64,000 nt of DNA from Saccostrea echinata (taxonomy: Eukaryota). The stretch is taken from assembly GCF_033153115.1 (NCBI RefSeq), contig NW_026889800.1, positions 6,510,001 through 6,574,000 of the forward strand, read 5' to 3'. Within the stretch, counting starts at the first letter, position 1; each line of letters opens with the position of its first letter. This document shows positions 1 to 56,056 of this stretch, piece after piece. Both the position numbers and the translations under genes were made by a program. The notes below the pieces were generated by a model that saw nothing but the letters and a program-made list of their open reading frames with translations, was not told where the DNA came from and did not search any database.

Positions 1-883
1 TCTTTTCTAACCTCAATGGCTTAGGATTGGACTGGGTTGGTGCATTTTATCTTCGAAATCTGGTGATATATGATTGTCGATGTCAATACAAATATCAATT
101 ATGTGACTAAAATAATTGAACTCTTCACGCAATCCTCAACATGCTATTCGAATAATTTTGTATTGCGAAATAAAAGTGGCAGCGGAACTTCTAAACAATT
201 TCAATCCTTATTCTTAATAGCATTCTTACTCCCTCAAGACACCTGATCCCACCTCTGATGTTTCAAAGGTCCTTGTTTGCTCTTCTTTAATTTGTATTGT
301 TTAATTATACTTTTGGGCATGATAACTGTTCGTTAACTTCACACACTGCATTGAGTACAACTTAAAGCTTTTGAAGCAAACTAAACCAAATCGATGTACC
401 TAAATTTCCTTCTTTGAAATTTAGCAATGCTAATTCTATCTCATTTTGCTATACTGCAGTGATATATTTTTTATAATAGTTCCAACGAAAAAGGTAAAGA
501 TAACGAACAGTGATCGATCTAAAAAAAAAAAAAAAATCAACAAACAATACAATTCTGTGAACATGACATAAAACACGGTCCCCCGGATATTACATGTTCC
601 AACATTCACCTTGTTTACCGGATCTAGTTCTATTCGTGTGTCATATAGTTTTAATGTTTGTTTGCATAAAAATAAAAATGAATGAGAATTCAAAAAGACT
701 GATGTAAGACCTGGTCTCCAAATAGTACGTGGATACTGTCAATGAGGGACTTCGTCATCTTTTTATTCATCAGATTAATATCAACTTCAAAGTACGGGTG
801 TATCGAATTTTTAATTTACAAGGTATGGAAATTCCAAGTAAAATTTTCCTTAAAGAAGTAGATGTCTTTAAACAAAAACATTC

Positions 884-1527
884 ACTAGACCCCGCATTAT
901 AACTCTGTAAGGACACCCACTAGACCCTGCAATATATCCCTGTTAGGACATCCATTAATTCTGTAAGGACATCCACTAGACCCTGCAATATATCCCTGCA
1001 AGCACATCTAGTAGACCCTGTAATATATCTCTTTAAGGACATCCACTAGACCCTGCAATATATTCCTGTAAGGACATATACTAGTCCCTGCGATATATCC
1101 CTGTAAGGACATCCATTATCCTTGTGAGGACATCCACTAGACCCTGCAATATATCCTTGTAAGGACATCCATTATCCCTGTAAGGACATCCACTAGACCC
1201 TGCAATATATCCCTGTAAGGACATCCACTAGACCCTGCAATATATCCCTGTAAGGACATCCAGTAGACCCTGTAATATATCTCTTTAAGGACATCCACTA
1301 GACCCTGCAATATATTCCTGTAAGGACATCCATTATCTCTGTAAGGACATCCACTAGATCCAGCAATATATCCCTGTAAGGACATCCACTAGACCCTGTA
1401 ATTTATCTTTGTAAGGACATATACTAGACCCTGTAATATATCCCTAGACCCTGTAATATATCCCTAGACCCTGTAATATATCCCTGTTAGGACATATACT
1501 AGACCCTGTAATATATCCCTGTAAGGA
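884..1527. repeat. 35-bp minisatellite (GACATCCACTAGACCCTGCAATATATCCCTGTAAG) with interspersed ~21-bp short units
   Basis: Tandem units read directly; ORF 1137-1385 is just the repeat cycling through frames. Confidence 0.95.
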
Positions 1528-2920: not shown

Positions 2921-3262
2921 AAAGGTAAAGATAACAAACAGTGATCGATCTCAAAAATCCACAAACAATACAATTATGTGAAGAAGGCATAAAACACGGA
3001 CTCCTGGGAATACCAGAGGTGGGATCAGGTACCTAGCAGGAGTAAGCATCCCCTGTTGATCGGTCACACCCGTCGTGAGCCCTATATATTGATCAGGTAG
3101 ACGGAACGTTCCGTAGTCAATTCAGTACAAAAACAAAGGCCAAACAATCGGTATGAAACAAGTCAGCCAAAATACGATCCAACGATAGGCTACATTTGCT
3201 AGCAAGGTCATTATAACGATCATAAAATTTACGAAATGCTGACTTTAAACGAGGCTGTTGAA
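2921..3262 (-). mobile_element. 3' end remnant of Penelope-like (Naiad-type) retroelement
   Basis: Reverse complement of the 3' ends at 20000-20300 and 20640-20968; further fragments at ~220-340, 490-600, 5790-6230 and 8460-8600. Confidence 0.75.
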
Positions 3263-3320
3263 ATAAATAGTTATAAATTATATAATTAACGCTTCTTCTT
3301 TTTTATGATTCCTTTCAGGA

Positions 3321-3872
3321 ATGGACTGGGTTTTGAAATTAGCATCTGTAATACTTTTGTTTGAATTAGGTAAGTCTGCTATAAGATTTGTCATTTTTTT
3401 TTTTCGAAAACCAGTCATAAATCTAGTAAACACGGTTTTACTTTTCACAGTTAAAGGTTTTCCTCGTAGAGAGAAAGATGCAAATAAATACGAAAGCAAT
3501 ACCAGTCATGGAAATTTAAAGCTAGAGCTTCACCACGAAAAAGATGTTCCTCAACACCAAAATAATATTTTGGTGCCTTATGAAAACTCTTTGAAACAGA
3601 TAGCGAAAGAACCGGCATCAAGTACAAGCCATAAATTTCACAACCTTTGGTCAGAAAGAACGGTACAAACTCCTGAGAACAGAGTACCATCTTTGCAAAA
3701 CAGCAAGGACTCGGTTGAAAAATATGCCATGCTGGCTTTGATTCCAGTGAGGGGAAGAAGGACTTGGAGGCGAAGAGGTTTTAAGATTTACAACGCAGTT
3801 CCGGATGCAAGATACCATTTTGACTCAATGGCTATTGACCCAATGTTTAACTTTCTTGGCATTGGAAAGTAA
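3321..3872 (+). CDS. Secreted prepropeptide, putative neuropeptide precursor (156 aa; exons 3321-3369, 3451-3872)
   Basis: Donor G|GTAAGT at 3370 and acceptor TTTTCACAG| at 3450; removing the 81-nt intron gives signal peptide MDWVLKLASVILLFELVKG-FP; polybasic RGRR/RRR sites; C-terminus ...AIDPMFNFLGI-GK-stop (amidation signal); acceptor just before the ATG implies an upstream non-coding exon; AATAAA at ~3941. Confidence 0.8.
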   Translation: MDWVLKLASVILLFELGKSAIRFVIFFFRKPVINLVNTVLLFTVKGFPRREKDANKYESNTSHGNLKLELHHEKDVPQHQNNILVPYENSLKQIAKEPASSTSHKFHNLWSERTVQTPENRVPSLQNSKDSVEKYAMLALIPVRGRRTWRRRGFKIYNAVPDARYHFDSMAIDPMFNFLGIGK

Positions 3873-5789
3873 AGGCTCATTTTCGTAAATGTAATGGAAA
3901 TCCGAAGGTGAATAACGAAAACAAAAATTAATTTATGCACAATAAAGAAACTTGAGCTTCAAGTATTTGTGTTAAGGGACAAAATATAGTTTAAAAATGT
4001 CGCCCAACCTCATCCAGTCACTATATATGTGGTCTGTTATAAGATGCAATGTATCTATAGGAATCTGGAGTAGACAGTTGTATTTGTAAGCTCGGAGTAT
4101 GAACCTTCGAATTGATTATATACTTTTTATATCTCAAAACATAACACTGTATGTAATTTTTTGCCATTATGAAGACCTCAATGATAGCCCACTACTAGCT
4201 GTTCCGGGATGTAATTTGACCTTAGCAAAGGTTTACCCATGTAACATACTAGTAATACGTTTAAGATATGAATTGTTATCATTGCTCACTTCCTACAGAA
4301 AAAAGTATAGAATTTGACAGAATTGTGAATTTAGCACATTGGTATAATAAAAAACCTAAAAACATAAAACCTAGTATTATTAAGATTGTCTCTATCAAAA
4401 ATAGGACGATAGCAAGCAGTCTTTTTCTATTATTTTAAGGATAAAATCTTGTCATCAAAATATGTTAGTGACAAATCTCCATTTGTAAATAATTAAGCTA
4501 GAAACGTATACTTTGTGGACGCAAAGAGATAAAATAAACATATATCTTAAGATTGTTTTTAATTGACACACATTTGTCAAAATACAATGGCCTGGGTTTG
4601 GGAAAAATAATATACAGAGACGTTTTCCATAAGTAAAAAAAAAATTCTTAGATTAGGAATTGTGAATATGTAAATATCGTTTAAATAATTTTGCCAGTAT
4701 ATTGTTATTTACCAGTTTTACAAATGATTAGCTCTTTAGTGGTCCTTTTGTAATCTGATTTCAATGTTCTCATGAGGCATTACTATATCAGTGAGATTGA
4801 ATTGTAATAAAGTGAAAAATGATATCCTTGGTTCATCGAAATATAAGTCATATGTTTTCGTCAAATGCACTTAAGAAAACCGTGTATCATGTATTATGTC
4901 GATACCTATATCTAAAAGTTAAGTTTATAAAAGGTCTTCTATGAAAGAAAATTTCTTGATTTACTGTAATTGTTAAGCAATATACAAAATTCTAGTGTCA
5001 AGTATTCAAACACGTTGAGATCCAGAATGAAAAACAAAATTTATTTGTTTCAATCAAAATATGTATATTTTGAGTACATTAACAATGAATTCTCGTCACT
5101 CAGCCCCTGAAGTATAATGATATATGATTACATCCATAGATGGTATAAATTCAAAAAAGATTAAACATCATTTCCATAAAAAAGGAGACAGGATACTTAC
5201 ATTCACTGACCGTGACCGGAAGCCACACCGTGATGTGCATTAATAGGGCCCTGAGCTTCTAGTGTTAACCGCTGGACAGAGAAAGGACAGAGTCAAGTTA
5301 CTCATAATGGTCGTATTTTGGGTTCATTGTGTCTTTTCTTCACATGGCATATCTTTGTATGATTGATATATTTTGATTTATTACCGTAAAATAATAAAAT
5401 CACTTTGAAAAACCCATTGACGAATATGCAGTTACAGATTCAAAAAGAACCTAATGAGGAGCTGCCATACTTTTACTTGTTATGACATAGTTATACCTGT
5501 TTGACATAGTTATACCTGTATGGCAGCTTTACCTTTATGATATTGATTTACCTGTATGACATAGTTTTTAAAGATTCGCTCGTCGTCAGCACTCAGGGCT
5601 GTAAAAGATAAGCATTAAATTCAATATCATAAGCACAAATTCTAATTTATATATATACCAAACTGCAAATATTCAATATTAAACCTACCTATGAGGATCT
5701 CTAGTATTCTTGAGTATCCAACAGTATTAATGAAATTTGTTAGAGTTCCAGCATCTGCGTGAGAAACCATATCAACAAGCAACAATTGT

Positions 5790-6228
5790 TGATCTACCGA
5801 TAACGTTGATAGAAAGTTGTTAAGTTGAAGTTGTTTTAAAACGTCGAGAATATCACGTTCCTAAACAAAAGAACATAGAAGGTTATCAACAGCCTCGTTT
5901 TCGTCATCATTTTGCAAGTTTTATGGTCGATACAATGACCTAGCTTGTCAGCAAATACAACCTATCATTAAGTCAAATGATGACTGCCGTTTTTCATACT
6001 GATTTTTAGGTCATAATTTACACACTGAATTGTCTACGAATTTTTCCGTTTTTCCCGACCTTGACAAGGAGCAAACGGCGGGTGTGACCGATCGGCAGGG
6101 GATGCTCACTCCTCCATGACACGTGATCCCACCTCTGATTTTTGGAGGTCCGTATTTTATCTGCTCTCGATTTGTATTATTCAAATAGACTTTGAGCCTG
6201 AATAATGTTCGTTATTTCCATATTTCAT
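5790..6228 (+). mobile_element. Penelope-like retroelement 3' remnant
   Basis: Same sequence family as 20590-20968 (GGGTGTGACCG...CCTCCATG...GATCCCACCTCTG...GTTCGTTATTTCC). Confidence 0.75.
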
Positions 6229-6426
6229 TAATAAATATTCATTGGTATCATTGGGATTGACAGACCTCTAAAATAGACCTGATAAATTTATGATTGTTTG
6301 TTTGTTGTTTAACGTCCCTCTCGAGATTTTTTCACTCATATGGAGACGCTAGACCTGATAAAAGATTTAAGTTTGACCAATATCGAAATATTTTGTGGAA
6401 GCTATGTATTGTTTTCGTAAGGACCC

Positions 6427-6469
<43 letters not shown>

Positions 6470-7443
6470 ATAAAGATTTTTGAAAACTGTGTTGAGTGCC
6501 CGAGTCTCCCTGACGAGATTCCTGTCAAAAATCAATTGACTGGTTCAGGGCAAAATAAATGACATTAATTATTGGGAATTTGGTACAGACAGCTCTGGGC
6601 AAGAACTTCATATCTATTCTAGGAATTTCTGTGGCAGAAATAAGAAAGCTGGTAATGAGCTCTGAATGTATTGGTTCATTTCCGTGTAGACTGAATTTGT
6701 GAGAGAATGACTGGATCATGAAATTATCAAATAATACTTCACTAACTCTATACCAAGGTTTTATTTAATAAAGGATAGGCATTATTTTTATTCAATTTGG
6801 TTCCATCAACCTGGTTTCTTTTACATAATAAATATATTACCGTTCAGTAATTTAGGGAATGCCTGATAACATGAATAATTTACCTCTGTGATTACAGCAC
6901 AGAGTGGTTTGTAATTATGGAGATTTTGGATGAAATCACTCACCACGAGACCACAAAGACAGACACCCACCAACATTGTCAAAATCAGGATCTTCATTCT
7001 GGGAAAGGATGTGTTCTGTAAAAATTGGAAAAAGGAAATAAAACATTAGGTCGTCTTCTAACTTCCATATCATAACCCACGTATCTAAATTTTCTTGATG
7101 AACGTATCTGATGTCGATTAAATTGGCAAGGTTTTTAGTGTTTGACATTTGAGTTTAAAACTAATAACTGTTTGTATTCATTTTAGGAAATAATCATTTA
7201 AAAGCCACAATAATGAAATGCTCAACGTAAAAATATATATATTAACTATAGAGGAGAGCCCACTACAGCCTAGCTAATTTGTCGTTATTGAGATACATGA
7301 CTAGTAGGAAAATACTTATTAGAGTTTTGTAATGAAAGGTTCGGGCTTTCTATCCGGGGGTTTGTTTGGTTTTTTTTTTTTATTTCAATAGTACATTTCG
7401 TTATTGTTAATGATCTAGTATGCCAGTTACTTTGATCACTTAA

Positions 7444-8226
7444 AGGTGCTTGGACACAGATTTGAAGTTAATATTTTCTCAAATTTTCTGTAAAATTTCA
7501 TGACTTATATGTTGCTATAGAATTTCATACTAAAATATAATAAAAATCTTATTGCATCTCGAAGTTATTGAAACTTCAAATTTCTGGACACGTTTGATTG
7601 ACACATCCTTGCACTTTCACAAATTTTAATTTTATTCTTAATACTTAAGAAAAGTGGCAATTTTGTTGTGTATTAATGAAATATATCAAAACTATAATCC
7701 AGAAAATTCAGAGTAGAAATGTTCGAAAACAAAACCCACTCACAGTATTGTCAGTCCGTTCTCAGTGGTGTGTGCAGACTTTAACACTTGAACACACCCG
7801 GTGAATCGTAAACATTAACAATAACAGAGCTCGTGCCCTTTTTACAAAAACAGTTTACGTTTCACGGGTGTATTCAATTTGTTAAACTCTGTACACAACA
7901 CTTAGCACGGGCTGACGATATTAGTGAGGGGGTTTGCTCTCGCACATTTCTACTCTGAATTTTCTGGATTATAGATGTAATGTTTTTCATTAATACACAA
8001 CAAAATCGCTTCTTTTTTTCCTAAAATATTAAGGATAAAGATAACATTTGTGAAAGTGCAAGGATGTGTTAATCAAACGCGTCAAGGAATTCGTAGTTCC
8101 AATAATTTCCAGATAAAATAAGTTTTTAATTATATTTTCGTGTGAAATGCTATTGCAATATATAAGTCGTGATTTTACACAGAAAATTTGAGAAAATATT
8201 AACTTCATATCTGTGTCTAAGCACCT
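7444..8226. mobile_element. Palindromic non-autonomous DNA transposon, Kolobok-like
   Basis: TTAA target duplications at 7440-7443 and 8227-8230; AGG...CCT termini; the two halves are inverted copies over almost the whole length. Confidence 0.85.
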
Positions 8227-8622
8227 TTAAGGGACTGATATGTTTGACGAGTATAGAATACCAAGAAAACGGATCATTATTTTACAGTAAATATTTTAAA
8301 GATCTTCAACATGTTTAATTACATGTACACTATACAAAGGATGAAGTAAAATAATTCATGCATCGACATCAGACACGATGAATAAACCAAGGATGCAGAA
8401 AAATATTTAATATATAAACATCTTTAGATAAGTTGAAGTTACATGGATTTTAACAATCCCCTTCAACAAGTTCAAAGTCAGCATTTCGCAAATTCTATGG
8501 TCGTTATAATGGCCTTGTAAGCAAATAACACCTATCAATGGCTCATATTTTGACTGATATATGTCATACTAAATGTTAAATCTTTGTTTTTATACTTAAT
8601 TTGCCTGTGGATAACTTCTGAT

Positions 8623-9183
8623 AATCAACATGTCTAATTACGTAAACACTCTAAAAAGGATACAGTAAAACATTTAATATATCAACATGTCTAATTACGT
8701 ATATACTTTATAAAGTATACAGTAAAATATTTAATATATCAACATGTCTAATTACGTGTACACTCTGTCAAAGATACAGTAAAATATTTAATATATCAAC
8801 ATGTCTAATTACGTATACACTCTGTCAAAGATACAATAAAATATTTAATATATCAAAATGTCTAATTACGTATATACTTTATAACGTATACAGTAAAATA
8901 TTTAATATATCAACATGTCTTATTACGTGTACGCTGTACCAAGGATACGGTTAAATATTTGATCTATCAACATGTCTAATTACGTGTACACTCTAAAAAG
9001 GATACAATAATAATATTTAATATTTCAGTATGTCTAATTGGTCTACAGTCTATCAAGTTTACAGTAAAATATATACATCAACATGTCTAATTACGTTAAG
9101 TACACCAGGGACACATTAAAATTTTGATATATCAACACGTCTGACATGTACAGTCTTTGTCAAGGAAACGGTAAAATATTTAA
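8623..9183. repeat. ~59-bp tandem repeat (ATCAACATGTCTAATTACGTATACACTCTGTCAAAGATACAGTAAAATATTTAATAT), ~9 copies
   Basis: Direct reading. Confidence 0.9.
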
Positions 9184-9287
9184 CGTTTCCCACTCTAGTA
9201 ATTCAGAAATACCAAACTAACGAGAGGCGTTATATCGTACTCCAGCACCTGGTAAATTAAGTAGAATACTTTCTGAATGTAAAGCAA

Positions 9288-10373
9288 AACAAGAGGCCCA
9301 GTGGCCACATCGCTCACCTGAGCACTATGGCTAGGAAAAAGCAGAAATCATTTCAATCTTGAAAGGTTGAAAAGTTTAAATATAAAAGTGGTTGGGGGGG
9401 GGGTGTCAGGAATTGAACAAATTTGAATCTACATTATCTGAGGATGCTTCCATTTAAATATGACCAATCATGGCTTTGCTGTTCTCGAGTAGAAGATTTT
9501 TAAAGATTTAACCTATGTATTCCTATGTAAAACTTTGATCACCCATTGTGGCCCCACCCGATCCCCAGGGGTCATGTTTGAACAAACTTGAGTGTACACT
9601 ATCTAAGAATGCTTCCATATAAATATGACCAATCATGGCTTTGCTATTCTTAACAAATTGTTTTTTTTAAAGATTTTTACTATGTGTTCCAATGTAAAAC
9701 TTTGATCGCCCATTGTGGCCCCACCCTACCCCCGGGGGTCATGATTCGAACAAATTTGTATGTACACTATCTGAGGATGCTACCATATAAATATGACCAA
9801 TCATGGCTTTGCTGTTCTTGAGAAGAAGATTTTTACTATGTGTTCCTATGTAAAACTTTGATCGCCCATTGTGGCCCCACCCTACCCCCGGGGGTCATGA
9901 TTTGAACAAACTTGAATCTACACTACCTGAGGATGCTTCCAAGTAAATATGACCAATCATGGCTTTGCTGTTCTTGAGAAGAAGATTTTTGAAGATTTTT
10001 CCTATATATTCCTATGTAAAACTTTGATCTCCCATTGTGGCCCCACCCGACCCCCGGGGGTCATGATTTGAACAAACTTGAATGTACACTATCTGAGGAT
10101 GCTACCATATAAATATGACCAATTATGGCTTTGCTGTTCTTGAGAAGAAGATTTTTAAAGATTTTTCCTGTATATTTCCTATGTAAAACTTCGATCGCCC
10201 ATTGCGGCCCCACCCTAGCCCCGGGGGTCATGATTTGAACAAACTTGAATCTACACTACCTGAGGATGCTTCCACATAAATTTCATGTTTTCAAGCACAG
10301 TGGTTCTTGAGAAGAAGATTTTTTAATGATGCCATTAATTTTTCACGAATTCTTAATTATCTCCCCTTGGAAG

Positions 10374-26124: not shown

Positions 26125-28756
26125 ATGGATAAAAACAGAAAAATAATCATCAACAATAACAAAGACGAACTAAAGATTGTTTCAAATTGGGGTCAGGTCA
26201 AACGGAACGTCAAACTCTCAGACGTGGTGGACCCACTGATAGAGAAAGGACTCATCACGCCCGACCAATGGATGGACATCAAAAATCGACCAATCAGCGA
26301 GCCAGAAAAGATGGAGGAATTCATGTATATACTTCTGAAACAGAAGTCAGGAGCTCTGGGGATTTTTCTGAAAGCATTAAGAAACTCCGGTTTTCATCAT
26401 GTTGCCGACGAATTAGAAGGGATTCCTCATAAAGATGGTCTGTATGGAGAATTTTCTTCCATTACTTTTAAATGGAATTCAGTTCAAATTTTATTTAGAT
26501 TTCAAATATTACTAACCATAACTTACTTCCGCAAGTAAAGGCTTTTATACAGTCAAATGAGGGACATACGCAACGTAGTTTTGAGCTTTTTTCCCCTAAT
26601 CTCCTGAAATTGAAGAGGTCCAATTGCGTGTGACTCCTTTGATGCTGTGGACCTTTTCTAAAGCAAATTTTGAAGAAATACCGATTAAAGCTGTATGTTT
26701 GGCCATTCTTTGTGAATTTTTCATTGAACGTTGATAGTACAATGACTTTTTTTAGTATCTTGAAGAATTATGTTGCATATGACCTTAACCCCAAAATATA
26801 CCATTAACAAATTTATTAAAGAAATTATATTTTGATTTTTAAAAAGGAAAAATAAAAATTGATACTTGTACAATAAACTAGACAAACCGAGATCCAACAT
26901 TGTAGATAAACAAACATTTCTATTTTGGGGAAATCATCCACTGCCTTGACTAATTTAAATGCATTGTCCTGATTCTTTTTGTTAAATAAAGCAACAAAAC
27001 AAAATGAATTTCAAAAATATTTAACCATATGATACCATTTTAAAGTTCATCAATGATATGGACATTGGTATCGATTGATGTTAATTTTACCTCCTTGACT
27101 TATGTTTTCTTTGCTTTAATGAATAAGTAATTCAAAGTCTATCAATAAGGTTGATATACTGGTTAAGAATTTATGTTGGTCTCATTTCCCTCTCCTATTT
27201 TTTCATTAAAGGTTGTGATCATTCGAGGACACACCCCAGGGTAAGTAGCTTACTTAAAATTTTAATAACTCTCAAATTTTATAAAAGTTGTTATGTAGAG
27301 TTAACAAATCGCAAAGATTAAGTATAATATCGATTCTTCACATGCTATTCTATTTGAAATACACATGTACTATATTAAAACATTTATGAAATAATTCAAT
27401 GATTTTTTATTCTATAGCGATGTATGATTCTATAACATAAATTTCCACTGTCAAGTGCATATGTGAAAGTAATTTAATTTCTGCGTAGGTTCCTGATGTT
27501 TGCACAACAGAGACGAATAAAGAAGGGAAAAGTGGGGGCCAAGGTTCTGCCTCATCTTCGAAAAGTACCGACACAGTGCGCCAGGAGGATCTCCACAAAA
27601 TGAAAGAGGAAATAAAAGACGAATTGCGCAACATTCGTGAAAATTTGGCATCTGAAAGAAAACAAGACAGAGACCAATTGTTGTTGCTTCAGCGAGAACA
27701 TAAACATTTACAAAATGATTTCGAAAGACTTCGACAACAGAAAAGTGAACTGTCATCGCGTTTGGATGATCTGATGAGTTCTGTTGACAGTTTAAAGAGC
27801 AAACTGGAAGAAAAAGAACGTGAATATCAGGAGCTGAAAAGAATAAATAACGGACTGAGAGAAGATTTGATGAGACAAAATAAGAGTAACTCCAGATCCA
27901 TACAGAAAAAGGACAAAGAGAAAGAGGAAATGGAGAAAAGGTTAGAGAAGAAGGAGGATGAATATAAATTATTACAAGCCATGATGGAGACCTTAAAAAG
28001 TGACCACGAGGAGAGGCTACACAGACTTAAAGTCGTAAACAAAGAAAAGGTAAGGTTAGACGGGGAGTACAAAAACGTTCTGTTGGAGAAAAAAGAACTG
28101 GAATCTAAGTACCAAGCCCTAAACCAGCAGGTAAAGGAAGTACAAGTGAAGCATACAAAGGAAGTGACGCAACTCCAAGGTGACGTCAAGGATCGTATGT
28201 TGAGGATCGAGGAGCTAGAGAGAGACAAAAACGAACTATCACAACAACTAAGCGAGTCCGAAAAAGAAAACGAAGAACTAAAAAAGGAGAACAAGAAACT
28301 AGAACAGGATTTACGCCGCACTGAAGGGGATAAGGAAATTCTGCAAACGAGGCTTCGTCAGTCCGACCTTCAAAAGTATACAGTCCCTCCGTTCTCTTCG
28401 GTGGCTAGGCATCCAAATTATCCTCCCCAGACAAGAGCCCCGCCAAAGCCTCAATGGAGGTATGTTTCTTTTCACAACTTGTCTTTCATTTATGATTACC
28501 GAGTTTTGAAGTTTAAGACCTCTTTTGATATACTACTGTAGAATGTTTCCTATATATACTCAGTATACTTTTCATCGCAATATAACAGACAACTGCCTTA
28601 GATTAATATTCATAGCATTAGTGTTCAGCATTTTTCTGAGAGTGTACTATTTGAAGCAAATATATATGTGCAATGTAAAAAGTTTTAATAATACATTTTA
28701 CACGATTTAATTTTCAAACATTTTGCAGGTTGGGAGCACGTGGCAAACATCACTAA
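26125..28756 (+). CDS. CARD (death-fold) plus long coiled-coil protein, 446 aa (exons 26125-26437, 27212-27240, 27489-28459, 28729-28756)
   Basis: N-terminal VVDPLIEKGLIT...KMEEFMYILLKQKSGALGIFLKALRNSGFHHVADEL fits the CARD pattern; ~260 aa of E/K/L heptads; Pro-rich tail; junction phases 1,0,2 are consistent. Confidence 0.85.
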
Positions 28757-31905: not shown

Positions 31906-37488
<5,583 letters not shown>

Positions 37489-40759: not shown

Positions 40760-43700
40760 TCATCCATCATCAAACTCCTCTTCATCGCTAAAGTAAGCAT
40801 CTTTCTTGTATTTCTTACGCTTTGGTTCGTCGTCTTCCGTGACGGAGGAGGAGCCAGAAGCAGCATACCGCAGTGATTCCCGCTCTATCTGTTGTTGCTG
40901 CGTAAAGGGGGATAACTAGAATCATTACACACGTATTGAAATGTTGCTGCAGATTTTGAAGGAGAAAATTAGTTTGATACACATACTGAAATAATGCTGC
41001 AGATAATGATAATCACAATACACACTTTATCAATTTTCTGAAAATATGTTTTTGCTGCAGATCAAAGGGGGATAACTCTGATAATTACTTTGCAAGCTTG
41101 TATAAAAATCAAATAAAGAAGAAAACTAACATGGGGAAAAACGCCATATATGTACTTGATATTTAATGGATACTGATATTGCACATGTTCCTGATATTTT
41201 ATGGATGGTAAGTAAATGTGTACTAATATCTAGTAGCTGCTGAAAGTAGGTACAGTACATGTGTACCTGATATTTAATGGCTACTGACAGTTAGTACATG
41301 TGTACCTGATATTTAATGGCTACTGACAGTTAGTACATGTGTACCTGATTATTATGGCTACTGACAGTAAGTACATGTGTACCTGATATTAATGGCTACT
41401 GACAGTTAGTACATGTGTACCTGATATTTAATGGCTACTAACAGTTAGTACATGTGTACTTGATTATTATGGCTACTGACAGTAAGTACATGTGTACCTG
41501 ATACTTAATAGCTACTGACAGTAAGTACATGTGTACCTGATATTTAATGGCTACTGACAGTAAGTACATGTGTACCTGATACTTAATAGCTGCTGACAGT
41601 TAGTACATGTGTACCTGATACTTAATAGCTACTGACAGTAGTACATGTGTACCTGATACTTAATGGCTACTGACAGTAAGTACATGTGTACCTGATACTT
41701 AATGGCTACTGACAGTTAGTACATGTGTACCTGATTATTATGGCTACTGACAGTAAGTACATGTGTACCTGATATTTAATGGCTGCTGACAGTAAGTATG
41801 TGTGTACCTGATATTTAATGGCTGCTTACAGTTAGTACATGTGTACCTGATATTTAATGGCTGCTGACAGTAAGTATATATATGTGTACCTGATATTTAA
41901 TGGCTGCTGACAGACTTTCCAGGGCAGGATCTTCGACCTCTTCATCACTGTCTTGCTCTTCTTCACTACAAATAAAGAAATCCTCCTTAGTATCCTTCTC
42001 TTACCTATGGAACTATTTTATTTCATCGTCAGTTTGTCTTGCTGGCTAGCTTTCCTGTTTTTGAATTCAGAAAATTACTCTGCAATAGAGCACAATACCA
42101 CCGATAAGAATAGATCATTAGGGTCAATCTCCATACAAGTTCGAGTAAATGTAGGCCTTGATAGGAATTCTCTCAAAGTGATTGTTTCAGTATGCACATG
42201 CATGCATCTTGATAATGGTAAAGTTTCATGTGATATATATTTTTAAACTTCTAGAAACAAAAATTAAGAACCAGTTGTGATATTGATCATGTGTGATATA
42301 TGCATTGATAACTGCAGTAGTACATATAAATATGTCACACCTACAATTGTACAGGTGTAATATTTAAACTAATATTTACACCTTTACATATTAAATAAGC
42401 AGCTGCATTGATGTATGCCATGTCCATTGGTTGTGATAAAACCTGTACATATATGTATGTGGTATGTGTATTGATTACTATATTTGTACACAGGTGATAC
42501 TGTAAACTAACATCATACACATGTGAGATTTGTGAACAACTCAAGCTAGGAACACTGTGAACCAGTAACTTGCAATGCCATGTTTTACAAATCATAAGGG
42601 CTCAATAGTTAATTTTAATTGCCCTGGACTGCTTTTCTGTTGGTGATTCATGAATACAAAATGTCACACATATAAAAGTTGCTTTCTAGTATTTGTCTAT
42701 GGTATAAGTTGTATCCATATTAGCTGATTATGGAATGCATTGTTTACAACACCTATTCATGTTATACCGACCTGTATTCCTCTTCTTTTTGTTTTTTTCT
42801 CTTTCTTTCTTTCTTTGGAGGTGGATCCCTTTCTCCAAGGAGATTTTTTGGACATTTATAACTCAGATGACCTTCTTCCTATAAAATGATTACCAATTCG
42901 AAAATCTCCATATGTATAAAATGTATAAAATCCTTCCTTTTTGTAATAATTATACTTTTAAAAAATCATACTCTCACATACATGTAAATGTTTATTATAA
43001 GCATTACATATTTTTTTCATAAGAAAAAAATTAGAAACAAAAACATCATGAACTACTAACATTACTTATAAGCATTTACCTGTCATTGATAAGTGTATAT
43101 ACTTACAACACTCATTATAACTGGATTGTCTGTCCGTGGTAAAGTTTACTGAGAATCTGGATTTGTCAATAGTAAGTTTACTTAGAATCTGGATTTGTCA
43201 ATAGTAAGTTTACTTAGTCCCTAGATTTTGTCAACGGGAAGTTTACAAAGTATTTGGATTTGTCACTAAGTTTTCTTACACCACACTTATAGTATCTGGA
43301 TTTGTCAGTGGTGAGTTTACATAGTATCTGGATTTGTCGATGCTTTGTTTACATAGTATCTGGATTTGTCAATGGTGAGTTTACAGTGTCTGGATTTGTC
43401 AATAGTGAGTTTACAGTGTCTGGATTTGTCAATTGTGAGTTTACATTGTAGGTAAATTTGTCAATGGTGAGTTTAAATAGAATCTGGATTTGTCACTTGT
43501 GAGTTTATACAGCATCTGGATTTGTCAATGGTGAGTTTACAAAGTGTCTGGATTTGTCAATGGTGAGTTTACATAGAATCTCAATTTGTCAATTATGAAT
43601 TTACATAGTATGTAAATTTGTCAATGGTGAGTTTAAATAGAATCTGGATTTGTCAATGGTGAGTTTACATAGTGTCTGGATTTGTAATGGTGAGTTTACA

Positions 43701-46700
43701 TAGTATCTGGATTTGTCAATGGTGAGTTTACATAGAATCTAAATTTGTCAATGGTGAATTTACATAGTATGTAAATTTGTCAATGGTGAGTATAAATAGT
43801 ATCTGGATTTGTCAATGTTGAGTTTACTTAGTGTCTGAATTTGCCAATGGTGAGTTTATATAGAATCTGGATTTTTCAATGGTGAGTTTACATAGTGTCT
43901 GGATTTGTCAATGTTGAGTTTACATAGTATCTGGATTTGTCAATGGTGAGTTTACATAGTATCTGGATTTGTCAATGGTGAGTTTACATAGATTAGTATG
44001 TAAATTTGTCAATGGCGAGTTTAAATAGAATCTGGATTTGTCAATGGTGAGTTTATACAGTATCTGGATTTGTTAATGGTGAGTTTACATAGTGTCTGGA
44101 TTTTTCAATTGTGAGTTTACATTAGAATCTTGATTTGTGATGGGGGAGTTTACATATCTGGATTTATCAATGATAAGTTTACATAATACATGAGTTTACA
44201 TAATATCTGGATTTGTCAATGGCAAGTTTACTTACACCACATTCATAACATCTGGATTTGTCAGGGTAATCCTTTCTCTTTATAAACTCTGTAGTTCTAC
44301 CATTATCTTTTGCAATGTTGCATTTTATTGTTCTGCCAAACATCTGTATAAAATAAAATTCAAATAACAAGAGGCCCATGGGCCACAATGCTTGTCAAGT
44401 AGCCATGGTTCTTCATCAGCACATTCTTTTTCCAATATATTCTTATATAAAACTTTGATCACGTATTATGGCCCCACCATACCTTCAGGGGTCTTGATTC
44501 AATCTACACTGCCTGAGGACACTTCCATATCATGGCTTTGTTCCTGGGAAAATGATTTTTAAACACTCCTCCTATATATTCCTGAGTTAAACTTTGACCT
44601 CCCAATTCTGTCCCACCTACACCCATGGGTCCTGATTTGACTGCAATCTACACTAACCGAGGATGAATCCTTATAAATATGGCTGATCATGGCTTTGCTG
44701 TTCTTGAGAAGAAGATTTTTATATTTCATGTATATTCCTATGTAAAACTTCCATCCTCTGTTGCATGATTTAAACAAATTTGAATCTACACTACCTGAGG
44801 ATGCTTCTGTATAAATATGACTAATTATGGCTTTGTTGTTCTTGAAAAGAATATTTTTTAAGATATTTCCTTTATATTCCTATGTTAATCTTTGACCCCC
44901 AGTCCTACCCTTAGTGGAACACGATCATGAACAAACTTGAATCTACAGTATGTAATGAAGCTTTCACGTAAGTTTCTTTTTTTCTGGCCCAGTGGTTCTT
45001 AAGAAAAAAATTTTAAAATGTTACCAAATTTTCACAAATTCTTAATTATCTCCTCTTGAAAAAAGGACATGGCACATTTTGTGAACAAAATCAAATCCCT
45101 ATCCACCCAAGAATGCTTTGTACCAAGTTTGGTTGAAATTTGGCCCAGTGATTCTTGAGAAGAAATCGAATATGTTAAGTTTCCAGACAACACACAAGAG
45201 ACAGACAGAAGGATGCCAGATACTTTTGATAAGAAAAGCTCACCTGAGCCTTCAACTCAAGTGAAAAATCCTCCAATATTAGAATTTATGTTTAAGACAT
45301 CTGTTTACAGTGTTATTGGGAAAGTTCAAAAATTTTAGATAACTGTTTCTCCTCCATCCTTACACAGTGTTACAAAATCACATGACAATATACATAAATA
45401 CAAAATATTATTCTTGAGTATTCTAATACTGTACTAAATGACTTTGATGAAAAATATACCACTCAGGTCCTTTTAAATGGGAGAAACTGAAACATTATTC
45501 CCAGAAATGTAGGCTGTTACTTTGGTTACATGGTTAGATCATTTAGAGTAATGTATGCAAACTGTAAGGATGAATAAATACCTCAGTTTTGTTAAGGGCA
45601 CGTACAGCTTTAAAGGCTGAGTCTCTGTCTATAAATAAAATGAATGCTACTCCTTTACTTCTTCGCTCATTGTCCTTTAAAACTGTAACTCTGAAAGACC
45701 AATCAAAATATAGAACATTAAAACTGTAACTCTAAAAGACCAATCAAAATATAGAACATTAAAACTGTTACTCTAAAAGACCAATCAAAATATAGAACAT
45801 TATAAACTGTTACTCTAAAAGACCAATCAAAATATAAAATATTAAAACTGTTACTCTAAAAGACCAATCAAAATATAGAACATTAAAACTGTAACTCTAA
45901 AAGACCAATCAAAATATAGAACATTAAAACTGTAACTCTAAAAGACCAATCAAAATATAGAACATTAAAACTGTAACTCTAAAAGACCAATCAAAATATA
46001 GAACATTAAAACTGTAACTCTAAAAGACCAATCAAAATATAGAACATTAAAACTGTAACTCTAAAAGACCAATCAAAATATAGAACATTAAAACTGTAAC
46101 TCTAAAAAACCAATCAAAATATAGAACATTAAAACTGTAACTCTAAAAGACCAATCAAAATATAGAACATTAAAACCGTAACTCTAAAAGACCAATCAAA
46201 ATATAGAACATTAAAACTGTAACTCTAAAAGACCAATCAAAATATAGAACATTAAAACTGTAACTCTAAAAGACCAATCAAAATATAGAACATTAAAACC
46301 GTAACTCTAAAAGACCAATCAAAATATAAAACATTAAAACTGTAATTCTAAAAGACAAATCAATATATATAGAACATTAAAACTGTAACTCTAAAAGACC
46401 AATCAAAATATAAAACATTAAAACTGTAATTCTAAAAGACAAATCAATATATATAGAACATTAAAACTGTAACTCTAAAAGAATTCAAAATTTGCAAATC
46501 ATTAAACATGTTTTCATTCACAACTGTAAGTTTATTTGTTTTGTCAGTGAGAGGTTTTGCCTGTATTTTAAAGAGAGAGAGCAGGGGTTAAATTTTCCTG
46601 GAATTTAATCCACTAGCCCACTAGCAAAAAATTACTTGCCCAAACCTCAAACTAACTAGCCAAAATTTTTTTTTATATAACATTTGAACGTAACACAGTT

Positions 46701-53563: not shown

Positions 53564-53679
53564 TTTCAAATGAGGGTACATGTACATAGAAACACAAACA
53601 ATTGAATCCAATTTCTTAAAATTGTGAAATTTCATTGAAGTCTCTAAAATACCAGTAACTTCTTTTGTTTCACTTTAAA

Positions 53680-54090
53680 TACAGTCAAACCTCATTATCT
53701 GGAACTTGATGGGACTCAGGAAAACTTCGAGATATCTGAGGATTCGAGATTTCAGGGGTAACCGTAAAATACTTGGAAGAATAAGGGGTTGGGACTTCCA
53801 AATCACTTCAACATATCCATGGTATTCGAGATATCGAAGTTCAACTGTACATTAAATTTATGTTCTGATCAACTTATTTTAAAGATAACAATTGTATTTG
53901 AAATGTAATGTTCAGTAGAACATGGGTATCCCGAACACTGATATCTCGAATACCATGGATATGTTGAACTGATTTGGAAGTCCCAACCACTTATCCTTTA
54001 AGTATTTTTCCCTCCATATCTCGAATCCTCGGATATCGCAATTTTTTTTCTCGGTCCCGTTGAGTTCGAGATAACGAGGTTTGACTGTAC
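53680..54090. mobile_element. Two inverted Tc1/mariner(pogo)-like MITEs (third copy at 55432-55610)
   Basis: TA-CAGT...ACTG-TA termini, ~170-bp shared sequence. Confidence 0.75.
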
Positions 54091-56056
54091 TTCTCTCCTT
54101 CTTCATTGTAGCTGCTGTTTATACCACTCACTGTAAGTTACGGACCAAAGTCAACACCCGAAGGACGAGGCTTGGATGAAGTATAAGTATTCTAATAGAA
54201 TTGTGTACATGTTGATTGTGTGCTTTTCTGAAGTGAAAAATTGAAATTGTTTAGACTAATCTTTCTTCAACATTTAAATTTTGACAAATTAATTTGGAAA
54301 CAAAAATTTCCTCAGGTAAATCATTATGATTGGCATTTGTACAATTCTATTTCAAGGATGCAGTGGAACAAGACAACATCCCTAGGAACATGATATGTGC
54401 TTGCTATTAGAGACAATTAAAGGCCACAATGTCCACTGCACAAGTTCAGCAACTGAAAAACCTGTAGTCAGCATTTTTAGAGTACCACATATTTCATTCA
54501 TGTGGACATATACCTTCATTCATTATAAAATACAGCAAGATGGAGGACAGTTTTCCCATCCTGGTTTCCCAAAGATCCAGGTAAGGGAACATTTCTGCTG
54601 ATCGAAACAAAAGAAATTTGCCCTAGCTGGAGCATATAGAAAATATTGAGAGGTATAGTCTACAGGTTCAATTAAAAGAGTAACTGGTCTTTCTGCCAAA
54701 ATCACTGTGACAGTTGGAAAGACTCTGCGTGGAGACAGTTTTAGTGTCTCTGTGTAGGCAGCAAAGAATTCCAACCCTATTCTTATTTCCCAATTCCACC
54801 TTCCAAGATTGACAAGCCACCAATCTGAAGAGCACATAAAGGAAACCAGCCTCCACTTGCTGATCTGCATATTATGGCTCCTATTCTTCCTCACAGTGCA
54901 CAGCTAATTACAACCCTGGAATGCTTAGGACAGAAATGACAGTACACAGCTAATTACAACCCTGGAATGCTTAGGACAGAAATGTTGTCATTTTACAGTT
55001 TAAAGACTTGGTCAGAAAAATAAAACTCCAGCTGACATAATGTAAATGTAAATGTGACAGAATGAAATTTAATTGATATATAATTTCAATCAATTAAACT
55101 ATTATGATATGAATTCATTTATTAATTATTTGTAACACATGAATTGATTTATGAATATATTTACAGTACTCAGTTGATTAACCTAAGTATTGTCATGTGG
55201 ATATTTTTAACTTTTAAACACTGTAGCAAGTTTTGTATGGGGTACCTATGCTTAATTATGGTCAGATATACAGGGTTTCCGATCTTGTGATTATAATTTT
55301 GGAGGGAATTTTTCTCTTGTGATGTTTAGTTTCCTTACTGTAGTCATTGTTAAAAAGGTATTTTCAGCCAAAATGAATTGTTTTGTGTAATATTCTTCAT
55401 CAGTCAATTGATTTGTAGATGCATATATAATTACAGTTGAACTTTGATATCTTGAACACTGATATTTTGAATACCATGGATATGTTGAACCGATTTGGAA
55501 GACCCAACTGATTATTCTTTTAGTATTTTACCCTCGATATCTCAATTCCTCAGATATCTTGAAGTTTTTTCTAGGTCCTATCGACTTTTAGATAACGAGG
55601 TTTAACTGTATGCATAAATTAATACAAATGTATATGCTTCTATAATAAAAGAAATATCTTGAAACCTTTTTAATTTTATTATAATGGTTGATCATATTGT
55701 ATTTTTTTTTTATCCATGGATAAATTATTTTCATGATGTGATTATAAGAATCTAGTATTAGTTTATTGCCGTACAATCTTCAATTTTACAACTCATGAGT
55801 GGTAAGCATAAATATTTTCTGAATTCATAATAATAATGATAGTATGCAGTGAAAACTGTATCAGTGTATTTATATTATTTATAATTAATCGTATTTTAAA
55901 ATAATAAGCAGATCTAGATAATTTTGAGACACAAAAATATTTTTGAGTCTTGTGTAGAAAGGGAGTTAACTATTATCTTTATTATATTCGAAAATATGCA
56001 CGCAAGAGTTATCTTTCCTACAATTTTGTTTCTCATATGCTTTTACTTTGTAACAG

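What the first reader, a model, noticed from the sequence alone, without database searches (positions are those of the whole stretch)
3321..3872. Candidate undescribed single-copy amidated neuropeptide precursor
Seen: after removing an in-frame, stop-free 81-nt intron hidden inside the ORF, the protein has a clean signal peptide, a long spacer, RGRR/RRR sites and a terminal GFKIYNAVPDARYHFDSMAIDPMFNFLGI-GK. Established: G-K at the C-terminus signals amidation, and molluscan buccalin/allatostatin-A peptides end in G(L/I)-amide but usually occur as many copies per precursor. Inference: a 29-aa (or 17-aa, after a monobasic R) amidated peptide, possibly a divergent AstA/buccalin relative. Retention of the intron would add 27 hydrophobic/basic residues to the signal region.
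Basis: partly seen in the sequence, partly recalled or inferred. Interest (0 to 1): 0.7.

Follow-up and report, generated by a model that had tools for sequence, protein, structure and literature searches.

The report
Oyster single-copy allatostatin-A-like peptide precursor
An unnamed, spliced oyster gene, separate from the known buccalin gene, encodes a protein predicted to be secreted and cut into one 29-residue amidated peptide that likely acts as a second allatostatin-A/buccalin-type signal.

Summary
Removing the 81-nt intron (3370-3450) gives a 156-aa protein identical to the RefSeq 'uncharacterized' Saccostrea echinata LOC133203756, and one contig of a probable RNA run carries the splice. 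Orthologues were found only in oysters (Saccostrea, Ostrea, Magallana, unnamed records). Identity is 19% in the spacer, 81% at the RxRRxWRRR site and 67% in the terminal 29-mer, with G-K/R-stop kept. The 17-mer is unlikely: its arginine is not conserved. Intron retention is unsupported: an orthologous intron has an in-frame stop. The last 11 residues are in register with annelid allatostatin-A copies and a second Pomacea buccalin gene (D-P-x3-F-x-G-L/I-amide), and the Magallana form ends YFFGI-amide, the textbook motif. But S. echinata's own ending (NFLGI) fails that motif, the precursor is single-copy, and its gene structure differs from the genome's multi-copy buccalin gene. The genome holds four allatostatin-A/galanin-type receptors. 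It is not in the two oyster neuropeptide lists read. Verdict: a likely new single-copy variant of the allatostatin-A kind; peptide, tissue and receptor untested. The scan's notes held nothing like it.

The parts
3319..3369 (+). Exon holding 2 nt of leader, the ATG (3321) and codons 1-16 plus one base of the predicted signal peptide; preceded by a splice acceptor at 3317-3318
   Evidence: Sequence; the same AG|GA-ATG and 49-nt coding length in L002
3370..3450 (+). 81-nt phase-1 GT-AG intron, in frame and stop-free, probably by chance
   Evidence: RefSeq model; loose end of the X1 contig; orthologous 99-nt intron in L002 has an in-frame stop
3451..4156 (+). Last exon: rest of the coding region to 3872 and 3' UTR to at least 4156 (first AATAAA at 3941)
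   Evidence: X1 contig 3449-4156, X2 3508-3824, X3 3989-4133
3451..3458 (+). End of the predicted signal peptide (cleavage after residue 19, VKG|FP, inferred from the -3/-1 rule)
   Evidence: Hydropathy; not tested with SignalP
3459..3722 (+). Pro-region / spacer, residues 20-107; poorly conserved except K25, N38, L39, L41
   Evidence: 36% (20-57) and 19% (58-107) mean identity over 6 pairs of 4 lineages
3723..3749 (+). Conserved hydrophobic segment (ALIP invariant) between a single basic residue and the RxRR site; role unexplained, possibly a second short peptide or a processing element
   Evidence: 74% mean identity; invariant columns
3750..3776 (+). Basic cluster R-x-R-R-x-W-R-R-R, residues 117-125: predicted convertase sites
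   Evidence: 7 of 9 residues invariant
3777..3863 (+). Predicted mature 29-residue peptide, residues 126-154 (amidated monoisotopic mass about 3347.6, net charge -1, no cysteine)
   Evidence: 29 aa in all 7 orthologues tested, 13 of 29 invariant over 4 lineages
3831..3863 (+). AstA-like core AIDPMFNFLGI (D-9, P-8, F-4, G-2, I-1)
   Evidence: Register match with Capitella and Pomacea copies read; invariant columns
3864..3872 (+). Gly-Lys-stop: predicted amide donor and basic residue for carboxypeptidase trimming
   Evidence: 51 of 52 stored homologues end G-K or G-R (cluster members, not independent)

Best explanation
This is a spliced, single-copy oyster gene whose product is predicted to be secreted and cut at a conserved basic cluster into one 29-residue amidated peptide that likely signals through an allatostatin-A/galanin-type receptor. 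Steps: (1) the gene is transcribed and spliced (shown by annotation and one contig); (2) the signal peptide is removed after residue 19 (predicted); (3) a prohormone convertase cuts after RxRR/RRR, a carboxypeptidase trims the last Lys and PAM turns Gly into an amide (inferred from established processing rules and conservation); (4) the C-terminal D-P-x3-F-x-G-I-amide enters the pocket of one of the genome's four AstA/galanin-type GPCRs, perhaps a duplicated one, while the conserved N-terminal 18 residues would add selectivity (inferred); (5) the effect would be modulation of muscle, gut or neuroendocrine cells as for buccalins (inferred by analogy). Origin: likely a second AstA-type gene reduced to one long terminal copy.
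For: Spliced product = RefSeq 156 aa; splice in an X1 contig; spliced 154-aa Magallana forms called on short Logan contigs (P0012). Conservation profile of a prohormone: spacer 19%, basic site 81%, peptide 67%, GK 100%; pN 0.20-0.22 in the C-terminus against 0.54 in the spacer at similar, near-saturated pS 0.72-0.91 (window vs L002). Of 6 invariant positions in the last 11 residues (D146 P147 M148 F151 G153 I154), 5 are those shared with Capitella AstA copies and the second Pomacea buccalin gene (by eye 6 of 11 identical to Capitella AIDPWMKFAGL, 7 of 11 for the L002 form against AMDPSMKFAGI, 5 of 11 against Pomacea SIDPRHLFVGL). Chance of hydrophobe-10, D-9, P-8, F-4 given a G-I/L end is about 2.6e-5 on assumed background frequencies (motif picked after seeing the match, so roughly 1e-3 after allowing for the registers and families looked at). 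Magallana forms end YFFGI, matching the Y/F-X-F-G-L/I-amide motif stated in PMC12509031. Against the genome's own 9 buccalin copies the non-Saccostrea forms score above 98.6-99.2% of 20,000 random G-I/L-ended 11-mers. Four receptors 58-100% identical to the query form one clade (99/99), best solved relative galanin receptor 1. Second AstA-type genes are on record in Pomacea, Conus, abalone and nemerteans.
Against: The S. echinata ending NFLGI fails the textbook motif at -5 and -3 and scores only at the 6.6% level against the genome's buccalins. AstA/buccalin precursors are multi-copy with short peptides; this one has one copy and no basic site before the core. The genome's buccalin gene is on another contig with an intron-free coding region; this gene has an intron in the signal peptide. 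No homologue outside oysters among 1.84 billion representatives (5 hits: 4 oyster, 1 repeat protein judged spurious) or among 456 candidates with a C-terminal profile (8 hits, all already known). No Pfam family at a meaningful level. Not among the 96 C. gigas ganglion precursors or 20 S. echinata ones that I read. The match rests on 11 residues. Tissue of the runs is unknown and depth is low. Whether the four receptors are AstA-R or kisspeptin-receptor-like was not resolved.
Confidence: 0.55

Rival explanations
1. An oyster-specific amidated peptide hormone of its own family; the AstA-like ending is convergent and the peptide acts on an unrelated receptor, with the conserved N-terminal part (F-x-x-Y-N-x-x-P-D-x-x-Y-x-F) as the active face.
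For: Seven invariant positions lie in the first 15 residues of the peptide, outside the AstA-like core; no homologue outside oysters; architecture and intron differ from buccalin; S. echinata ending departs from the motif.
Against: Five of six invariant positions of the last 11 residues coincide in register with annelid and Pomacea AstA-type copies; exact motif in Magallana.
Confidence: 0.25
2. It is the missing ligand of the lophotrochozoan kisspeptin-type receptors rather than of the buccalin receptor.
For: Molluscan KISSR-like receptors are orphan and did not respond to 19 buccalins in Aplysia; three are predicted in Magallana gigas (PMC12509031; PMC8557429). AstA and kisspeptins share an FGL motif. 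Single C-terminal long peptide.
Against: KISSR-like receptors occur in annelids, molluscs and nemerteans, but the peptide was found only in oysters; it lacks the RF/RY-amide end given for kisspeptins.
Confidence: 0.08
3. A non-neural secreted product (mantle, gut, gonad, mucus, defence or pheromone) in which the cationic RxRRxWRRR stretch is functional or the protein is not processed as predicted.
For: The invariant Trp between two basic sites and the invariant ALIP segment are not explained by simple cleavage; absent from ganglion lists; its neighbours are small secreted-type genes.
Against: G-K/R-stop is kept in 51 of 52 stored homologues; the 29-mer is anionic (-1 to -3) with no cysteine, unlike typical cationic antimicrobial peptides (recalled); the lists were built by similarity to known precursors, so absence says little about tissue.
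Confidence: 0.1
4. Regulated retention of the in-frame intron yields a 183-aa form with an altered signal region.
For: The intron is a multiple of three in both lineages seen as DNA (81 and 99 nt), and some alleles of the second lineage are open (P0007, P0019, P0037).
Against: L002 has an in-frame stop after 29 codons; open alleles translate differently from each other (P0007 vs P0037); the inserted residues show no likeness between lineages; 5.5% chance per intron; the only informative contig is spliced.
Confidence: 0.02

Closest known systems
Annelid/brachiopod allatostatin-A peptides (Capitella ELU12101.1; last copy of Platynereis allatostatin-A-2; Lingula XP_013384620.1) as printed in the supplement of PMC8514136
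   Same: C-terminal register D-9, often P-8, F or hydrophobe at -4, G-2, L/I-amide; the Platynereis A-2 fragment also ends in a D-P copy followed by G-K and stop.
   Different: Those precursors are multi-copy with about 10-12-residue peptides behind KR/KK; here one copy, predicted 29 residues, with a conserved N-terminal extension.
Second buccalin-type gene of Pomacea (XP_025108540.1)
   Same: A second AstA-type gene beside the ordinary buccalin gene; copies of the form D-P-x3-F-V-G-L-amide in the same register.
   Different: Multi-copy, short peptides; orthology with the oyster gene not shown.
Oyster buccalin (G000:C1 near 380 kb; C. gigas XP_011425482.2)
   Same: Hydrophobe-10, D-9, aromatic residues, L/I-amide; its last copy is also N-terminally extended to about 30 residues.
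   Different: Separate gene and contig, about 10 copies, core F-5/G-3 rather than F-4/G-2, intron-free coding region; no similarity in the extensions.
Arthropod allatostatin A (Y/F-X-F-G-L-amide) and vertebrate galanin
   Same: Magallana forms end Y-F-F-G-I-amide; PMC9263205 says canonical Y/FXFGLamides were not known outside panarthropods. One long amidated peptide per precursor is galanin-like (29 residues for galanin is recalled, from no call).
   Different: I instead of L; S. echinata and Ostrea forms lack F-3; no sequence likeness to galanin was tested or claimed.

Membership tests
Amidated peptide precursor (prohormone) | N-terminal signal peptide, no other membrane segment | tested here: met
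   Hydropathy peak at residues 7-17 in 4 of 4 forms that start at the orthologous Met, none later; SignalP not run
Amidated peptide precursor (prohormone) | Conserved basic cleavage site and Gly-basic end around a conserved peptide, variable spacer | tested here: met
Amidated peptide precursor (prohormone) | Mature amidated peptide detected; expression in neurons or endocrine cells | not testable with these tools
   Runs have no tissue on record; not in the MS table of PMC8398477, which covers other precursors only
Allatostatin-A / buccalin | C-terminal Y/F-X-F-G-L/I-amide (PMC12509031) | tested here: inconclusive
   Met by forms ending YFFGI (28 of 52 stored homologues end FFGI-GK), not by S. 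echinata NFLGI, Ostrea YFLGI or YFWGI forms
Allatostatin-A / buccalin | Lophotrochozoan core hydrophobe-D-x4-F-x-G-L/I-amide of the annelid/Pomacea type (my reading of the printed precursors, not a published definition) | tested here: met
   All 8 forms listed
Allatostatin-A / buccalin | Molluscan buccalin core F-x-G-x-L/I-amide | tested here: not met
   G is at -2, not -3; own buccalin copies
Allatostatin-A / buccalin | Several short copies per precursor between dibasic sites | tested here: not met
   One copy, no basic site before the core; 7-11 copies in bivalve buccalins
Allatostatin-A / buccalin | Activates an AstA/buccalin receptor | not testable with these tools
   Needs a cell assay; candidate receptors L017-L020
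Allatostatin-A / buccalin | Shared gene structure or synteny with the buccalin gene | tested here: not met
   Different contig and intron pattern; wider synteny not tested
Kisspeptin / galanin | N-x-F-G-L-R-Y/F-amide end (kisspeptin, PMC9263205) | tested here: not met
   Ends G-I-amide; galanin N-terminal motif not tested

The most novel reading that the evidence does not exclude
Oysters keep a second, ancient allatostatin-A paralogue (the D-P-x3-F-x-G-L/I type of annelids, Pomacea and perhaps nemertean AstA2) that has collapsed to one 29-residue amidated peptide, a galanin-like layout, and it is the dedicated ligand of one of the duplicated AstA/galanin-type receptors or of the orphan kisspeptin-type receptors, so ligand and receptor were split up together.
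Probability: 0.2. Interest if true: 0.7.

Novelty: new variant of a known kind. Interest (0 to 1): 0.48.

Why it matters
It adds an overlooked candidate signalling peptide to a farmed animal whose neuropeptide list was thought near complete, and it gives a ready ligand to test on four oyster AstA/galanin-type receptors and on orphan kisspeptin-type receptors. If it activates them it shows how a multi-copy short-peptide precursor can turn into a single long-peptide one, the difference that separates allatostatin A from galanin. It also shows why similarity searches with multi-copy precursors miss such genes. If it acts elsewhere it is a new oyster peptide family. It is not a new kind of system.

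Tried and rejected
Complex prediction of receptor L017 (residues 25-345) with the 30-residue peptide: no verdict (score 0.02, alignments not used, peptides untested for this tool). Pfam: nothing meaningful for the precursor, its C-terminus or four orthologues. ESM Atlas: all hits under 0.9; peptide-hormone clusters (DH31-like, urotensin-2B, PBAN, PDF) appear at 0.80-0.83, leads only. PDB sequences with the C-terminal profile: 9 matches, best E 0.24, unrelated. P0053 (E 3.6e-9) rejected: a 1479-aa repeat protein of bacterial look matching only profile positions 129-147. Metagenome scan: 93 pattern matches, 1 confirmed locus, L002. Paralogue search in G000: 1 match each by protein and by a D-P-x3-F-x-G-hydrophobe-G-K pattern (1 match, own gene; reversed control 4). 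No listed run is on record as RNA; X4 had no contig on the gene. 17-aa peptide rejected. Likeness to allatotropin (GF-K/R start), cerebrin/PDF (YN-x-PD), PYKIamide/QSamide (D-P near the end), LASGLVamide and FYFY considered by eye and rejected: different register or ending. My first reading of Platynereis allatostatin-A-2 as single-copy was wrong; it is multi-copy. Paper searches for the locus ids (0 papers) and for peptide motifs (2 and 10 listings, none on a molluscan peptide by title or abstract) found no description. Look-ups in the scan's notes: nothing by sequence or place, one unrelated note by words.

Full report
1. Observation. The window holds an ATG at 3321 and an open frame of 183 codons to 3872. 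Inside it lies an 81-nt GT-AG intron, 3370-3450, phase 1, with no stop in frame; removing it gives 156 aa. That protein is letter for letter RefSeq XP_061195517.1, 'uncharacterized protein LOC133203756 [Saccostrea echinata]', so the window is very likely from this oyster. Of 4 runs laid on 3270-4400, three had one contig each; the X1 contig covers 3449-4156 and starts with 16 letters that equal 3352-3367, which is the spliced junction. This is one low-depth contig of a run only guessed to be RNA, of unknown tissue. A splice acceptor lies 2 nt before the ATG, so the gene has a further upstream exon that I did not find. The gene has one match in the 923-Mb genome by two protein searches.

2. Relatives. 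Three word-index searches returned 3, 8 and 8 proteins from 13, 792 and 456 candidates; cluster look-ups name S. cucullata, Ostrea edulis, Magallana gigas (XP_011415256.1, LOC105319413) and M. angulata, all 'uncharacterized', and leave several unnamed. An HMMER scan of 1.84 billion representatives gave 5 hits: 4 of these oyster-type proteins and one repeat protein I judge spurious. So nothing was detected outside oysters; short divergent peptides can escape such searches. One metagenome contig (L002) holds an orthologue with the same acceptor-GA-ATG, the same 49-nt signal exon and the same tail-to-tail neighbour.

3. Anatomy and selection. Over 6 pairs of 4 lineages mean identity is 46% in the signal peptide, 36% and 19% in the two parts of the pro-region, 74% in the ALIP segment, 81% in RxRRxWRRR, 67% in the 29-mer and 100% in G-K. 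Between the window and L002, pN is 0.54 in the spacer and 0.20-0.22 in the C-terminus at pS 0.72-0.91, near saturation. The peptide is 29 residues in all 7 orthologues measured, without cysteine, net charge -1 to -3. Of 52 stored homologues (cluster members, not independent) 51 end in G-K or G-R and one reads on; the residue that would give the 17-mer is R in 27, S in 22, G in 3, so that site is not kept. The in-frame intron is probably chance: 5.5% by shuffle and length; the 99-nt intron of L002 stops the frame after 29 codons, while other alleles of that lineage are open with different translations. That both introns are multiples of three is noted but is a 1 in 9 event.

4. How it most likely works. 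Signal peptide removal after residue 19, convertase cleavage at RxRR and RRR, trimming of Lys and amidation from Gly follow from established prohormone processing and from the conservation pattern; none is shown by experiment. The product would be one 29-residue peptide ending in Ile-amide. Its last 11 residues carry six invariant positions. In the AstA/buccalin precursors printed in the supplement of PMC8514136, Capitella copies and the copies of a second Pomacea gene read D-P-x3-F-x-G-L/I-amide, exactly in register: by eye 6 of 11 identical for S. echinata against Capitella AIDPWMKFAGL, 7 of 11 for the L002 form against AMDPSMKFAGI, 5 of 11 against Pomacea SIDPRHLFVGL. Five of the six invariant positions are the shared ones. 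On assumed background frequencies the four upstream positions would co-occur with probability 2.6e-5; the motif was chosen after seeing it, so I take about 1e-3. As DNA the pattern occurs once in the genome, at this gene, and its reversed control four times, so no second intron-free gene with that exact ending was seen. Magallana forms end YFFGI and meet the Y/F-X-F-G-L/I-amide motif of PMC12509031; S. echinata (NFLGI) does not. Against the genome's own buccalin copies the S. echinata form is unremarkable (6.6% of random 11-mers score as high), the 7 others score at 0.8-1.4%. The genome has four single-exon receptors 58-100% identical to the query among 27 matches, three in tandem on C22 and one on C16, forming one clade (99/99) with galanin receptor 1 as best solved relative. 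PMC8514136 counts three buccalin receptors in C. gigas; PMC12509031 places three M. gigas sequences with kisspeptin receptors; I did not resolve which label fits these four. I commit to: the peptide is a ligand of one of these receptors (0.55 overall; about 0.85 for being an amidated peptide precursor at all).

5. Against. One copy, no basic site before the core, a conserved N-terminal 18 residues with no counterpart in AstA peptides, a different intron pattern and contig from the genome's buccalin gene, and no relative outside oysters. Two defining features of the family (multi-copy layout; molluscan F-x-G-x-L core) were tested and not met, so I do not file it as a buccalin; the claim is that it likely works like an AstA peptide. 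The invariant ALIP segment and the invariant Trp between the basic sites are unexplained.

6. What is in print. Searches of the held library for six locus or protein ids found 0 papers; motif searches found 2 and 10 listings, none on a molluscan peptide by title or abstract start. Papers as seen: PMC8398477, first two parts of the text, supplement parts 6-7 of 7 and two term searches: the list of 96 precursors has no row with this protein or locus id, but many rows give only transcript or contig ids and alignments are printed in blocks of ten, so this is not airtight. PMC12564202, supplement part 1 and a search of the whole file: 20 listed sequences, none is this. PMC8514136, passages, a supplement search and file 1 parts 1-2 (two image files unread). 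PMC12509031, passages and a supplement search (one file unsearched). PMC8557429, PMC6425005, PMC9263205, PMC4200219, PMC10396302: passages only; their supplements were not read and could list this precursor. Most subscription papers are not in the library. The 29-residue length of galanin and the traits of antimicrobial peptides are recalled.

7. Verdict. Real gene, good prohormone, apparently unnamed, probably a single-copy long-peptide variant of the allatostatin-A kind confined (as far as seen) to oysters. Interest 0.48: a clean, directly testable lead for molluscan neuroendocrinology, not a new kind of system.

Noticed in passing
window 5200-6997 (-) and 12934-13164 (+): Two related small secreted-type genes of no Pfam family: a 113-aa minus-strand gene (exons 6944-6997, 5689-5860, 5552-5598, 5200-5271; joints seen in X1/X4 contigs at depth 99-285; His-rich tail) and a plus-strand exon with a KR site after the signal peptide. 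Local alignment score 101, 0 of 5000 shuffles. The first is tail-to-tail with the precursor also in L002.
   Followed up: partly
G000:C22:16181073-16194675 and G000:C16:16288608-16289459 (L017-L020): Four single-exon AstA/galanin-type GPCR genes, three in tandem; the two most divergent have shorter or altered third loops and tails.
   Followed up: partly
L011 (G000:C1 near 380 kb): The buccalin precursor has an intron-free coding region, 9 regular copies and a last copy extended to about 30 residues behind a Tyr/Trp-rich stretch; similar extended last copies appear in other bivalves' precursors.
   Followed up: partly
window 3649 and 3887: X1 and X2 contigs read T for G at 3649 (Trp83 to Leu in the spacer) and X1 has one extra base at 3887 in the 3' UTR; probably alleles.
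   Followed up: no
window about 2950-3265 and 5900-6240: Interspersed repeats hit by hundreds of unrelated contigs; the first lies just upstream of the signal exon, inside the inferred 5' intron.
   Followed up: no
window 26041-26535, 27489-28538, 31906-32355 (+): A CARD-domain exon (Pfam E 2.7e-8), a 350-aa coiled-coil frame, and an exon of a triose-phosphate-transporter-family (SLC35-like) gene (E 0.0036, below cut-off).
   Followed up: no
window 878-1527, 8624-9189, 9401-10326, 41148-41913, 43102-44234, 45677-46512; 7436-8234 and 53677-54092: Several tandem-repeat arrays, and two long self-complementary (inverted) stretches of about 800 and 400 bases.
   Followed up: no
L012:3-1350 (10 kb upstream of the window): Open frames of 317 and 217 aa that look like pieces of a retrotransposon reverse transcriptase (label recalled, not tested).
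   Followed up: no
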